DNA of 64,000 nucleotides from Escherichia coli. Its GTDB lineage: Bacteria; Pseudomonadota; Gammaproteobacteria; Enterobacterales; Enterobacteriaceae. Each line of letters begins with the position of its first letter. Within the stretch, counting starts at the first letter, position 1. Made by a program: the position numbers. Shown one piece after another: positions 30,701 through 33,700 of the stretch. The stretch lies in NCBI RefSeq assembly GCF_030013205.1, contig NZ_CP122648.1. One strand, written 5' to 3'.

Positions 30701-33700
30701 CGAGAGAGGATATGGAAGGGTGGGCTGAGAGAGTGGTTAGAGAGCAATTTACGCATTAAAGGAATGACTGAAAGAGCCTGTAAACCCTTTTGTGTAAGTG
30801 CTTTTGCCGGTCAGTTAAAGGTGGCCATTTAAACGGTCACCAAATTCGATCATAAAACGGTTCATGGCCGGCTTCCAGTTGCGGATCGGCATCGTCCATT
30901 TCTTGGTCGCCGCCTGGATAGCCAGGTACACCACCTTCATCGCTGATTCGTCCGTAGGGAACACCTTGAGTTCATATTAATGGAATTTTCTACAAATAGC
31001 CTCCGTGGTTTTGAGGGGGGATTACAGACGATCCATAGTAGTAATCCAATGAGTTCTTGAGCGCGGCGACATGTTTGGACGCCTTGGCAAAAATTAGAGC
31101 CTGCTTGAAGTGCAGGCGAGCACGTGCTTGGACGATTGATCCATTCGCGGTCAAAAACTCAATCTTGGATGACAGCGTGTCAGGAAATCCAATATCGAAG
31201 TCCCGCCCCGTGTCAAAGTAGGGCATTTCATGATCAAAGGACGAAGCTTCCCAGGCCACTTCCCTAATATTCCAGCCGCTAGAAACAAGATTTCGTACGA
31301 CTTCATCAACTTTTTTGCTTTCCAACTTGTCACAAAGTGCATAGGCAAGAGCTTTGGCGGCAGACACGTGCGTTTCCTCTTAAACATAGGTCGAACGGAT
31401 ACCCGAGGCAAAGCGGAGCATTAGTCCCAAAGCATCTCCGGTAGATCCGGAGGCTCCATACTGAAGGCATGGCATCTTGGGCATTGATATTTGAAACTTC
31501 TCTCTAGATAGCAGGGATTTCTTGGCCTTGCCTCATGCTGATAGCTTGTAAATATCACACGATCCTTAGCCCCACAAAGTGAGCATACTCCGTAGCTTTC
31601 ATTTATAGAAATCGTCGTTAGATTGTCGCAGCATGTGCACGTTCCGACTATTTGCTCAGGAAGCATCGCCATACCTTGGCCTAGGTAAAGAAGATCAGAC
31701 TCGTAGCCACATCGGTGGCAACTGAGCTTGTACGCAATGCCCATCTGGTTGTCTCACCTGAATCGTAACGTCAGAGCTATTCATCCATCCATTCGGCATC
31801 AATGTATGCCACTAAGCCGACCAGCTGACCGTTTGGACTGAAGTATGTTGCCTGCACCCCACTTGACATCTCATCAATACCACCGCACTGCGCTAGGCGC
31901 CGGTCCCACTTGCCCACAGAAGCGTCAGGATCGGCTGAGTTCCCCAAGACCCTTGTGAGCCATGCCTCCTTTAACTCAACCTCTCGAATGATTGCGTCGG
32001 CCAGCTCCTCCGCGTTATCTAGTTCGACATAGTCTGGAATTCGGACGTACGTTCTGAACACAGCTGGATACTTACTTGGGCGATTGTCATACATGACATC
32101 AACAATGTACCCGTTTGTGTAACCGTCTCTTGGAGGTTCGTATGACACTAGTGGTTCCCCTCAGCTTGCGACTAGATGTTGAGGCCTAACATTTTATTAG
32201 AGAGCAGGCTAGTTGCTTAGATACATGATCTTCAGGCCGTTATCTGTCAGGGCAAGCGAAAATTGGCCATTTATGACGACCAATGCCCCGCAGAAGCTCC
32301 CATCTTTGCCGCCATAGACGCCGCGCCCCCCTTTTGGGGTGTAGAACATCCTTTTGCCAGATGTGGAAAAGAAGTTCGTTGTCCCATTGTTGGCAATGAC
32401 GTAGTAGCCGGCGAAAGTGCGAGACCCATTTGCGCTATATATAAGCCTACGATTTCCGTTGCGACTATTGTCGTAATTGGATGAACTATTATCGTAGTTG
32501 CTCTCAGAGTTGTCGTAATTTGATGGACTATTGTCGTAATTGCTTATGGAGTTGTCGTAGTTGCTTGGAGAAATGTCGTAGTTGGATGGGGAGTAGTCAT
32601 AGGGAAGACGAGCTTCATCCACTAAAACAATTGGCAGGTCAGCAAGTGCCTGCCCCGATGCCATCGCAAGTACGAGGCTTAGAACCACCTTCAACAGATC
32701 GCGCATAGTCTTCCCCAGCTCTCTAACGCTTGAGTTAAGCCGCGCCGCGAAGCGGCGTCGGCTTGAACGAATTGTTAGACATTATTTGCCGACTACCTTG
32801 GTGATCTCGCCTTTCACGTAGTGAACAAATTCTTCCAACTGATCTGCGCGCGAGGCCAAGCGATCTTCTTGTCCAAGATAAGCCTGCCTAGCTTCAAGTA
32901 TGACGGGCTGATACTGGGCCGGCAGGCGCTCCATTGCCCAGTCGGCAGCGACATCCTTCGGCGCGATTTTGCCGGTTACTGCGCTGTACCAAATGCGGGA
33001 CAACGTAAGCACTACATTTCGCTCATCGCCAGCCCAGTCGGGCGGCGAGTTCCATAGCGTTAAGGTTTCATTTAGCGCCTCAAATAGATCCTGTTCAGGA
33101 ACCGGATCAAAGAGTTCCTCCGCCGCTGGACCTACCAAGGCAACGCTATGTTCTCTTGCTTTTGTCAGCAAGATAGCCAGATCAATGTCGATCGTGGCTG
33201 GCTCGAAGATACCTGCAAGAATGTCATTGCGCTGCCATTCTCCAAATTGCAGTTCGCGCTTAGCTGGATAACGCCACGGAATGATGTCGTCGTGCACAAC
33301 AATGGTGACTTCTACAGCGCGGAGAATCTCGCTCTCTCCAGGGGAAGCCGAAGTTTCCAAAAGGTCGTTGATCAAAGCTCGCCGCGTTGTTTCATCAAGC
33401 CTTACGGTCACCGTAACCAGCAAATCAATATCACTGTGTGGCTTCAGGCCGCCATCCACTGCGGAGCCGTACAAATGTACGGCCAGCAACGTCGGTTCGA
33501 GATGGCGCTCGATGACGCCAACTACCTCTGATAGTTGAGTCGATACTTCGGCGATCACCGCTTCCCTCATGATGTTTAACGCCTGAATTAAGCCGCGCCG
33601 CGAAGCGGTGTCGGCTTGAATGAATTGTTAGGCGTCATCCTGTGCTCCCGAGAACCAGTACCAGTACATCGCTGTTTCGTTCGAGACTTGAGGTCTAGTT

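What the first reader, a model, noticed from the sequence alone, without database searches (positions are those of the whole stretch)
32209..32706. Integron cassette encoding a secreted protein with seven tandem SNYDNS-type repeats
Seen in sequence: signal-peptide-like N-terminus (MRDLLKVVLSLVLAMASGQALA) followed by YDYSPSNYDISPSNYDNSISNYDNSPSNYDNSESNYDNSSSNYDNS, encoded by 18-bp tandem DNA repeats, then a Gly/Tyr-rich C-terminus. Tandem repeats of this kind can expand or contract by slippage. No function is assigned; an exported repeat protein carried on a mobile resistance element is unusual cargo.
Basis: seen in the sequence. Interest (0 to 1): 0.35.

Follow-up and report, generated by a model that had tools for sequence, protein, structure and literature searches.

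The report
Tn7 orfX/ybeA exported heptad-repeat protein
This is the long-known but never characterised orfX (ybeA) gene that rides behind the resistance genes in transposon Tn7; it encodes a small exported protein whose seven-residue repeats look like a fixed part of its fold, not a fast-changing switch, so it is ordinary cargo of unknown function.

Summary
The ORF is real: window 32209-32706, minus strand, 165 aa. Its protein is identical to UniProt O32551 'ORFX', the orfX/ybeA pseudo-cassette that follows aadA1 in Tn7 class 2 integrons. It has a Sec-type signal peptide (ALA|D). It carries six full heptads plus one degenerate heptad (YDxSxSN), followed by a beta-rich domain. The DNA period is 21 bp, not 18.

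The gene has no attC of its own; an attI2-like stretch replaces it, as already published. Homologues in Pseudomonas, Methylotenera and Thiopseudomonas are complete cassettes with canonical attC sites.

The family is small and has no Pfam or NCBIfam model. It is under strong purifying selection, and the repeat region is its most conserved part: 78 of 92 non-Tn7 members keep the same heptad count. AlphaFold2 gives a confident model (pLDDT 91.6; repeats about 95) with no solved structural analogue.

Within Tn7 the array is constant in all sampled complete E. coli genomes. Clean in-frame deletions of 1, 3 or 4 heptads were confirmed in DNA, each bounded by 9-17-nt direct repeats and mostly in Shigella. 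A 2-heptad loss is seen in protein only. A frameshift allele also circulates.

Verdict: a known element and a passenger gene. Slippage contractions are real but rare. Function remains unknown. Low to moderate interest.

The parts
32209..32706 (-). ybeA (orfX) coding sequence, 165 codons plus TAG stop
   Evidence: ORF list. The exact protein is in the public collection on at least 1000 contigs, named 'ORFX ... O32551_ECOLX'. Identical DNA occurs in about 100 complete E. coli genomes and in plasmids of more than 10 genera.
32710..32716 (-). Shine-Dalgarno-like GGGGAAG, 3 nt before the ATG
   Evidence: Read from the sequence. This is inference only. No promoter-like site of its own lies upstream.
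32641..32706 (-). Signal peptide, codons 1-22 (MRDLLKVVLSLVLAMASGQALA); predicted signal peptidase I cut between Ala22 and Asp23
   Evidence: Rule-based check. In the family alignment A22 and D23 are nearly invariant while residues 1-20 vary but stay hydrophobic. No lipobox is present.
32455..32601 (-). Heptad array, codons 36-84: six YDxSxSN units plus the degenerate YDNSRNG; 21-bp period
   Evidence: TRF and repeat finder. Codon layout. Units share 72% amino-acid but only 61% nucleotide identity, with TCN and AGY Ser codons mixed. This region has the lowest dN of the gene and pLDDT about 95.
32526..32542 (-). First copy of the 17-nt exact direct repeat CAATTACGACAATAGTC
   Evidence: Longest exact repeat in the ORF, at offsets 164 and 227. 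The commonest deletion allele (144 aa, 272 contigs) is the clean loss of the 63 bp between the two copies.
32463..32479 (-). Second copy of the 17-nt direct repeat, 63 nt downstream of the first
32212..32454 (-). C-terminal domain, codons 85-165: seven predicted beta strands and a terminal helix
   Evidence: AlphaFold2 model: E87-92, 95-104, 110-113, 119-123, 129-132, 138-145, 148-153 and H155-164, with pLDDT 90-97. Invariant residues are Y101, N111, G117, R119, F121, G136, G140 and T154.
32326..32331 (-). G6 run on the coding strand (C6 on the + strand): site of a -1 frameshift allele
   Evidence: Protein P0122 (144 aa, 118 contigs) reads ...TPKGGAASMAAK..., as expected after loss of one G here (sequence).
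32188..32214 (-). attI2-like stretch that replaces the attC and overlaps the stop codon
   Evidence: 27 nt are 85% identical, with 13 nt exact, to the attI2 of the same integron at 34292-34318. This matches the published description 'ybeA-delta-attI2' (PMC12901181).
32722..32781 (-). attC of the aadA1 cassette; its GTT core (G at 32727, TT at 32726-32725) is the 5' boundary of the ybeA unit
   Evidence: Sequence. It is 89% identical to the sat2 attC at 33577-33638.

Best explanation
The ORF is ybeA (orfX), the fixed 'pseudo-cassette' at the end of the Tn7 class 2 integron array. Here the array is delta-estX, sat2, aadA1, ybeA, in a Tn7 at the attTn7 site of an E. coli chromosome.

Origin (shown). 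It comes from an environmental integron cassette family. The closest full cassette found, in Pseudomonas sp. CFII64, still has a 60-bp attC. In Tn7 that attC has been replaced by a piece resembling attI2.

Expression (inferred). The gene has no promoter of its own, so it is probably read through from the integron Pc promoters.

Product. It is exported by the Sec pathway and cut after Ala22, which is a rule-based prediction. That leaves a mature protein of about 143 residues. The model shows one N-terminal strand, an ordered ribbon of Asn/Ser/Tyr/Asp heptads, a seven-strand beta domain and a C-terminal helix. This is a confident model but has not been solved.

Role of the repeats. The heptads are a length-constrained structural or binding element, not a switch. 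Their number and even their variable residues (P, I/V, P, E, S) are conserved across the family. They are also the slowest-evolving part of the gene.

Function (inferred, weakly supported). The polar Asn/Asp/Ser ladder with Tyr anchors is most likely a binding surface for an envelope or extracellular polar ligand, such as a glycan or a metal ion.

Status in enteric hosts. Here it behaves as a dispensable passenger. Rare slipped-strand deletions between short direct repeats, and a frameshift in a G6 run, have spread in some lineages.
For: Identity and context:
- Exact match to O32551 'ORFX' on at least 1000 contigs.
- Gene order is tnsD, tnsE, ybgA, ybfB, ybfA, ybeA, aadA1, sat2, intI2*.
- An attI2-like stretch sits after the stop codon.
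- The literature describes the same arrangement (PMC5559693, PMC12901181).

Cassette origin:
- Canonical attC sites flank homologues in L001, L015, L002 and L014.
- The L014 homologue shares 77% nucleotide identity with the window copy, including the 5' leader.

Export:
- Signal-peptide rules are met in the query.
- In the family, 71 of 73 members have a hydrophobic core, all 73 have a basic n-region, and 58 of 73 have small residues at -1 and -3.

Repeats as structure:
- N56, N59, N63, S67, N70, N73 and N77 are invariant.
- 78 of 92 non-Tn7 members keep six NY-spaced heptads.
- dN is 0.04-0.055 in the repeats, 0.09-0.11 in the C-domain and about 0.2 in the signal peptide, with dS saturated.
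- pLDDT is about 95 over the repeats and pTM is 0.82.
- The model of the allele lacking 3 heptads drops to pLDDT 56-77 in that region.

Passenger status:
- Three deletion alleles (minus 1, minus 3, minus 4 heptads) and a second minus-3 allele are DNA-confirmed clean deletions. A minus-2 allele was seen only as a protein.
- The frameshift allele occurs on 118 contigs.
- There is no match in Pfam, NCBIfam, PADLOC or PHROGs.
Against: - No experiment or family annotation gives a function. The ligand-binding idea rests only on composition, conservation and a predicted model whose coordinates I could not inspect.
- Signal-peptide cleavage was judged by rules, not by a trained predictor.
- Expression from Pc is inferred.
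- The pLDDT drop in the short allele may partly reflect the alignment rather than real instability.
- Deletion alleles come mostly from short-read assemblies. The direct repeats (17 nt or less) are shorter than usual assembly k-mers, and the alleles recur in different arrays and data sources, which argues against artefact.
Confidence: 0.8

Rival explanations
1. The repeat array is a contingency locus. Frequent slippage changes the heptad number to vary an exposed surface protein, giving antigenic or phase variation.
For: Deletion alleles exist, with breakpoints in direct repeats. The same alleles are found in several cassette arrays, which suggests recurrence.
Against: - Units are in frame at 21 bp, so slippage cannot switch the gene off.
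- Units share only 61% nucleotide identity, and the longest exact repeat is 17 nt.
- Every sampled full-coverage copy in complete E. coli genomes is identical; 103 of 108 records cover the array region.
- No expansion was seen in the Tn7 lineage.
- The heptad count is conserved across a family down to 50% identity.
Confidence: 0.07
2. The ORF in Tn7 is a decaying relic with no working product. The repeats and 'signal peptide' are leftovers that no longer matter.
For: - The attC is lost and IntI2 is inactive, so the gene is frozen in place.
- Frameshift (118 contigs) and deletion alleles (272, 70 and 28 contigs) persist.
- No function is reported in the literature (PMC8858760).
Against: - The intact 165-aa form is by far the commonest, on at least 1000 contigs, and is identical across many genera.
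- The family is under strong purifying selection.
- The model is confident.
- 'Dispensable in enterics' is compatible with the best explanation; 'no working product' is not shown.
Confidence: 0.1
3. The heptads are a flexible, disordered Asn/Ser-rich spacer that merely tethers the beta domain away from the membrane or from a partner.
For: The composition is low-complexity (S 14, N 12, Y 8, D 7 of 49). DSSP assigns no regular helix or strand there.
Against: - This is the most conserved region, with invariant Asn and Ser positions and position-specific variable residues.
- pLDDT is about 95.
- There is no membrane anchor or lipobox from which to tether.
Confidence: 0.08
4. The repeats are homologous to the DDLRxNY heptads of Helicobacter pylori alpha-1,3-fucosyltransferase and act as a helical dimerising 'ruler'.
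For: A profile search of PDB sequences gave one hit, 5zoi_A residues 359-412, E = 3.5e-4.
Against: - The alignment matches only N-Y-D at 7-residue spacing.
- The units here contain Pro and Ser and are not predicted to be helical.
- The rest of the proteins are unrelated.
- There is no fold match.
Confidence: 0.02

Closest known systems
orfX / ybeA of Tn7 (class 2 integron In2-7), UniProt O32551
   Same: The protein is identical and sits in the same place, after the aadA1 attC and before ybfA, ybfB, ybgA and tnsE. The attI2-like 3' end is the same (PMC5559693, PMC12901181).
   Different: Nothing in the gene itself. In this copy the array upstream starts with an estX remnant instead of dfrA1.
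Canonical integron gene cassettes (ORF plus attC) encoding secreted proteins of unknown function
   Same: The unit starts at the GTT core of the preceding attC. It is promoterless and has a signal peptide, as do 16% of cassette proteins (PMC10661359). Relatives in Pseudomonas sp. CFII64, a Methylotenera MAG and Thiopseudomonas alkaliphila are complete cassettes.
   Different: The Tn7 copy has no attC of its own. It is excisable by IntI1 only through the attI2 remnant (PMC12901181).
Tandem-repeat contingency genes of pathogens (for example, repeat-bearing surface proteins that vary by slipped-strand mispairing)
   Same: There is an in-frame tandem array, and deletion alleles are bounded by direct repeats.
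   Different: The units are diverged. The copy number is conserved in the family and in E. coli. No expansions or on/off switching were found.
Small secreted proteins with NSPxNW or NSPxNY heptads followed by beta-hairpin motifs (unnamed set found here, e.g. P0222-P0245)
   Same: They share a signal peptide, 5-9 Asn-aromatic heptads, then GYxVxxxxGxxNxFxxxGxRxxY-type hairpins. They were hit by the family profile at E 1e-8 to 1e-12.
   Different: They are shorter (100-130 aa) and lack the second half of the beta domain. Trp often replaces Tyr. They also have no Pfam family.

Membership tests
Tn7 class 2 integron orfX/ybeA pseudo-cassette | Protein sequence equal to published ORFX | tested here: met
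   The exact-sequence look-up returns 'ORFX ... O32551_ECOLX' on at least 1000 contigs.
Tn7 class 2 integron orfX/ybeA pseudo-cassette | Position directly 3' of the aadA1 attC and 5' of ybfA-ybfB-ybgA-tnsE, in an array read away from intI2 | tested here: met
   ORF order. The aadA1 attC lies at 32722-32781. The same order is seen in Shigella loci.
Tn7 class 2 integron orfX/ybeA pseudo-cassette | attC replaced by a short attI2-derived sequence after the stop codon | tested here: met
   Window 32188-32214 against attI2 at 34292-34318: 27 nt at 85% identity, 13 nt exact. Published as delta-attI2 (PMC12901181).
Canonical integron gene cassette | Own attC (R''-L''...L'-R' imperfect inverted repeat ending in GTTRRRY) downstream of the ORF | tested here: not met
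   No such site lies between the stop codon (32209) and ybfA (32148); only the attI2-like stretch is there. Homologues L001, L002, L014 and L015 do have one.
Sec / signal peptidase I exported protein | Basic n-region, hydrophobic h-region of 8 residues or more, small residues at -3 and -1, no lipobox Cys | tested here: met
   R2 and K6; VVLSLVLAMA with KD 2.87; A-L-A before D23; no Cys. The features are shared by the family.
Sec / signal peptidase I exported protein | Positive call by a trained predictor (SignalP or similar), or experimental export | not testable with these tools
   No predictor of this kind is available here.
Slippage-driven contingency (phase- or antigen-variable) repeat locus | Near-identical repeat units | tested here: not met
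   Mean nucleotide identity between units is 61% (range 38-86%). The longest exact repeat is 17 nt.
Slippage-driven contingency (phase- or antigen-variable) repeat locus | Frequent copy-number differences, both gains and losses, among close relatives | tested here: inconclusive
   Only losses were seen: 1, 3 or 4 heptads confirmed in DNA and a 2-heptad loss in protein only, on roughly 370 contigs against at least 1000 canonical. None was seen in the sampled complete E. coli genome records. No gains were found.
H. pylori FucT-type heptad repeats | Helical, leucine-zipper-like heptads mediating dimerisation | tested here: not met
   The sequence match is limited to N-Y-D periodicity. The model shows no helix in residues 36-84.

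The most novel reading that the evidence does not exclude
YbeA would be the founding member of an unnamed periplasmic protein family with a fold not yet seen in solved structures. In it, an invariant ribbon of six to seven Asn/Ser/Tyr heptads packed on a small beta domain forms a binding surface for an envelope glycan or a metal ion. That activity would give Tn7 carriers a benefit unrelated to antibiotics, helping to explain why the intact gene has been kept in nearly all Tn7 copies for decades.
Probability: 0.12. Interest if true: 0.5.

Novelty: already known. Interest (0 to 1): 0.22.

Why it matters
The gene sits in one of the most widespread resistance transposons, yet in the papers I could search its function is given only as unknown and no repeat analysis was found.

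This check removes the idea that it is odd or hypervariable cargo. It shows instead that the gene belongs to a conserved, exported cassette family that is structurally unexplored, with a fixed repeat count.

The practical gains are modest:
- The heptad-deletion and frameshift alleles could serve as lineage markers for Tn7 in Shigella.
- The confident model with no solved analogue makes the protein a reasonable target for structure determination.
- None of this changes what is known about resistance or transposition.

Tried and rejected
- **Family libraries.** Pfam, NCBIfam, PADLOC and PHROGs gave no match for YbeA. YbfA, YbfB and YbgA gave only sub-threshold noise.
- **PDB sequence profile.** The only hit was the H. 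pylori FucT heptads. I rejected it as periodicity, not homology.
- **C-terminal fusions in longer relatives.** Pfam found only a partial FGE-sulfatase start and sub-cutoff TPR matches. These give no functional lead.
- **Gene neighbourhoods of chromosomal homologues.** They differ: prpC-acnD in L011-13 and, by ORF sizes only, what looks like an efflux pump in L020. There is no conserved partner.
- **My own attC finder.** It failed on known positives, so attC sites were read by eye from the flanks.
- **Literature.** Searches for the repeat motif and for Thiopseudomonas integrons found nothing.
- **Promoter scan.** It found no upstream promoter for ybeA. The one hit lies inside the repeats and is below chance expectation.
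- **Antisense ORF.** I considered the 75-aa ORF at 32481-32708 on the plus strand. I rejected it because selection acts in the minus-strand frame.
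Full report
**1. The observation**

Window 32209-32706 holds an ATG-to-TAG ORF of 165 codons on the minus strand.

The N-terminus has the three parts of a Sec signal peptide:
- basic residues R2 and K6;
- a ten-residue hydrophobic core with mean Kyte-Doolittle 2.87;
- Ala-Leu-Ala just before Asp23, with no lipobox.

From residue 36 there are six units of the form YDxSxSN and a seventh degenerate unit, YDNSRNG. The motif occurs six times, against at most once in 20,000 shuffles of the same residues.

The DNA period is 21 bp, with 42- and 63-bp higher order. 'SNYDNS' is six letters, but each unit has a seventh, variable residue.

The last 81 residues are Gly-rich (13 Gly, 6 Tyr, 6 Phe). 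They are predicted to be a folded beta domain.

**2. What it is**

The exact protein is in the public collection on at least 1000 contigs. One source names it 'ORFX', UniProt O32551.

The surrounding genes are those of Tn7:
- tnsD and tnsE on the plus strand;
- then ybgA, ybfB, ybfA, this ORF, aadA1 and sat2 on the minus strand;
- then intI2 with its internal stop on the plus strand.

The Tn7 right end, TGTGGGCGGACAA, lies 26 nt after the glmS stop codon. This is therefore a chromosomal Tn7 at attTn7 in E. coli. The only one-piece 100% match for the flanking parts is strain ETEC4079.

The ORF begins just after the GTT core of the aadA1 attC. It is not followed by an attC. Instead, 27 nt overlapping its stop codon are 85% identical (13 nt exact) to the attI2 site of the same integron.

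This agrees with the literature. [quoted passage not shown] A 2026 paper describes the architecture as attC(aadA1)-ybeA-delta-attI2 and shows that IntI1 can excise it at rates like normal cassettes (PMC12901181). Other papers list ybeA, ybfA, ybfB and ybgA only as ORFs of unknown function (PMC8858760, PMC3332091).

**3. Where it came from**

A search of 5.8 billion protein clusters gave 226 relatives. A profile search of 1.84 billion representatives gave 291 (108 at E of 1e-10 or better). The family is small.

A scan of one genome for each of 100,044 species found only 12 loci. They are scattered over Pseudomonas, Methylotenera, Psychrobacter, Formosimonas and several alphaproteobacteria.

Some relatives are complete cassettes:
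- **Pseudomonas sp. CFII64.** The protein is 82% identical. The DNA is 77% identical including the 5' leader. The gene is followed by a canonical 60-bp attC that is 90% identical to the sat2 attC.
- **A Methylotenera MAG.** The gene has attC sites on both sides.
- **Thiopseudomonas alkaliphila.** A 57%-identical relative is the fourth cassette, with its own attC. It sits in a chromosomal class 2 integron whose intI2 is 99.25% identical in DNA to the Tn7 gene and has Gln instead of the stop at codon 179. However, 275 bp covering the intI2 start are missing.

Other relatives are ordinary chromosomal genes without attC. One example lies between prpC and acnD.

So the Tn7 gene is a captured environmental cassette that lost its attC.

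**4. What the protein looks like**

No Pfam, NCBIfam, PADLOC or PHROGs model matches.

In an alignment of 73 full-length members, the signal region is variable but hydrophobic. The repeat region, by contrast, holds many of the invariant columns: N56, N59, N63, S67, N70, N73 and N77. The variable position of successive heptads keeps the pattern P, I/V, P, E, S/A.

The heptad count is stable. 78 of 92 non-Tn7 members have the same count of NY-spaced heptads as the query.

Selection is strongly purifying. Against the Pseudomonas copies dS is saturated while dN stays low:

| Region | dN |
|---|---|
| Whole gene | 0.08-0.10 |
| Repeat region | 0.04-0.055 |
| C-terminal domain | about 0.1 |
| Signal peptide | about 0.2 |

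The units themselves are old. They share 72% amino-acid but only 61% nucleotide identity, and Ser is encoded by both TCN and AGY codons.

AlphaFold2 with this alignment gives mean pLDDT 91.6 and pTM 0.82. Over the repeats pLDDT is about 95. The model has a strand at 24-28, no regular helix or strand in 36-84, seven strands in 87-153 and a helix at 155-164.

The one PDB sequence hit is to the DDLRxNY heptads of H. pylori fucosyltransferase. It aligns only N-Y-D at seven-residue spacing and is not homology.

A wider set of small secreted proteins with NSPxNW or NSPxNY heptads and similar hairpin motifs is detected by the profile.

**5. Do the repeats slip?**

In complete E. coli genomes, 103 of 108 records cover the array region. 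All sampled full-coverage rows were 100% identical. Two sampled records match only part of the region, in two separate places. Plasmids from more than ten genera carry the same sequence.

The larger protein collection, however, holds in-frame deletion alleles, mostly from Shigella. Counts are:

| Allele | Protein | Contigs | Breakpoint repeat | Status |
|---|---|---|---|---|
| minus 1 heptad | P0123, 158 aa | 70 | 11 nt, 21 bp apart | DNA confirmed |
| minus 2 heptads | P0007 | 1 | not examined | protein only |
| minus 3 heptads | P0011, 144 aa | 272 | 17 nt, 63 bp apart | DNA confirmed |
| minus 3 heptads, second kind | P0014, 144 aa | 28 | 11 nt, 63 bp apart | DNA confirmed |
| minus 4 heptads | P0018, 137 aa | 3 | 9 nt, 84 bp apart | DNA confirmed |
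| minus 4 heptads, second kind | P0016, 137 aa | 1 | not examined | protein only |

I fetched DNA for four of them. Each is a clean deletion with no other change, and each breakpoint falls in the longest direct repeat available at that distance. The commonest allele uses the longest repeat.

These repeats are shorter than assembler k-mers. The alleles also occur in NCBI, ENA and Logan assemblies and in different arrays: with or without aadA1, with dfrA1-sat2, or with a preceding gene that carries a Transpeptidase-domain hit. Assembly error is therefore unlikely, and recurrence is plausible.

No expansion was found in the Tn7 lineage.

A separate allele with a -1 frameshift in a G6 run occurs on 118 contigs.

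An AlphaFold2 model of the minus-3 allele keeps the beta domain (pLDDT 86-94) but drops to 56-77 in the shortened repeat region. This is a weak hint that the ribbon's length matters.

**6. How it most likely works**

Shown:
- identity with orfX/ybeA;
- a cassette origin;
- loss of the attC;
- a conserved, constrained repeat array;
- rare slippage deletions.

Predicted:
- export and cleavage after Ala22;
- a compact fold in which the heptads are ordered.

Inferred:
- transcription by read-through from the integron Pc promoters, since no promoter of its own was found;
- a binding role for the Asn/Asp/Ser/Tyr surface;
- dispensability in enteric hosts, given the circulating frameshift and deletion alleles.

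I put 0.8 on the identity, the exported structured protein and the passenger status taken together. I put about 0.2 on the specific ligand-binding idea.

**7. Rivals**

- **Contingency locus.** Disfavoured by the in-frame, diverged units, the conserved count, the absence of gains, and the constancy in E. coli.
- **Dead relic.** Disfavoured by purifying selection in the family and the dominance of the intact form, although selection may well be relaxed in enterics.
- **Disordered spacer.** Disfavoured by conservation and model confidence.
- **FucT-like helical ruler.** Rejected.

**8. Novelty and score**

The element is already known and is annotated everywhere as a hypothetical protein. Exported proteins are common integron cargo: 16.1% of cassette proteins have signal peptides, against 6.8% in metagenomes (PMC10661359).

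The following observations were not in the papers I could search:
- the family-wide conservation of the heptad count;
- the confident model without a solved analogue;
- the catalogue of slippage alleles.

They are incremental. Interest is 0.22.

Noticed in passing
L001 (Thiopseudomonas alkaliphila CP012362) 6214-11310: A chromosomal class 2 integron. Its intI2 is 99.25% identical in DNA to the Tn7 gene and has Gln (CAA) at codon 179 instead of the usual stop. It lacks 275 bp covering the intI2 start and promoter. It carries five non-resistance cassettes (a DinB-family gene, three ORFs of unknown function and a ybeA relative). The last attC closely resembles the aadA1 and sat2 attC sites. No paper on it was found.
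   Followed up: partly
window 34153-34300: The first cassette after attI2 is a remnant. Other E. coli class 2 integrons match this stretch in two pieces with 822 more bp annotated as estX. This array is therefore delta-estX, sat2, aadA1, ybeA, with no dfrA1. Only strain ETEC4079 matches in one piece.
   Followed up: partly
window 35600-36521: The left arm of this Tn7 copy is only 97.5-98% identical to other E. coli Tn7 copies. Its terminal bases read TGTAGACGGACAAAATAG, against TGTGGGCGGACAA at the right end (22899). This looks like a variant or hybrid left end. A BrxA-family ORF (35770-36009, minus strand) lies between intI2 and the end.
   Followed up: partly
window 32326-32331: A G6 run in ybeA. 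A -1 frameshift allele (P0122, 144 aa) is present on 118 public contigs, including a contig of 5.4 Mb.
   Followed up: partly
L006, L027, L029, L031, L032 (Shigella-type loci): These arrays read dfrA1, sat2, ybeA with the aadA1 cassette missing (68-nt gap between sat2 and ybeA). That is consistent with cassette excision between the similar sat2 and aadA1 attC sites. Several of these loci also carry heptad-deletion alleles of ybeA.
   Followed up: no
L011, L012, L013 (metagenome contigs): A 55%-identical ybeA relative (P0104) sits between prpC (citrate synthase family) and acnD (aconitase) of a methylcitrate-type operon in three different contigs. No attC is present. This is an odd place for an exported protein.
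   Followed up: no
window 30990-32148: ybfA, ybfB (which has Cys-rich, zinc-ribbon-like motifs) and ybgA follow ybeA. No attC was noticed between them, and they have no significant family match in Pfam, NCBIfam, PADLOC or PHROGs.
   Followed up: partly
window 36807-41786: A four-ORF run lies between the Tn7 left end and a 346-aa ORF at 42034, which by position I take to be pstS. From its N-terminal sequence the first ORF looks like a fimbrial subunit, and the ORF sizes (190, 243, 840 and 356 aa) would fit a subunit, chaperone, usher and adhesin-like set. None of this was checked against any database. If it holds, the attTn7 neighbourhood here is not the minimal glmS-pstS spacer.
   Followed up: no
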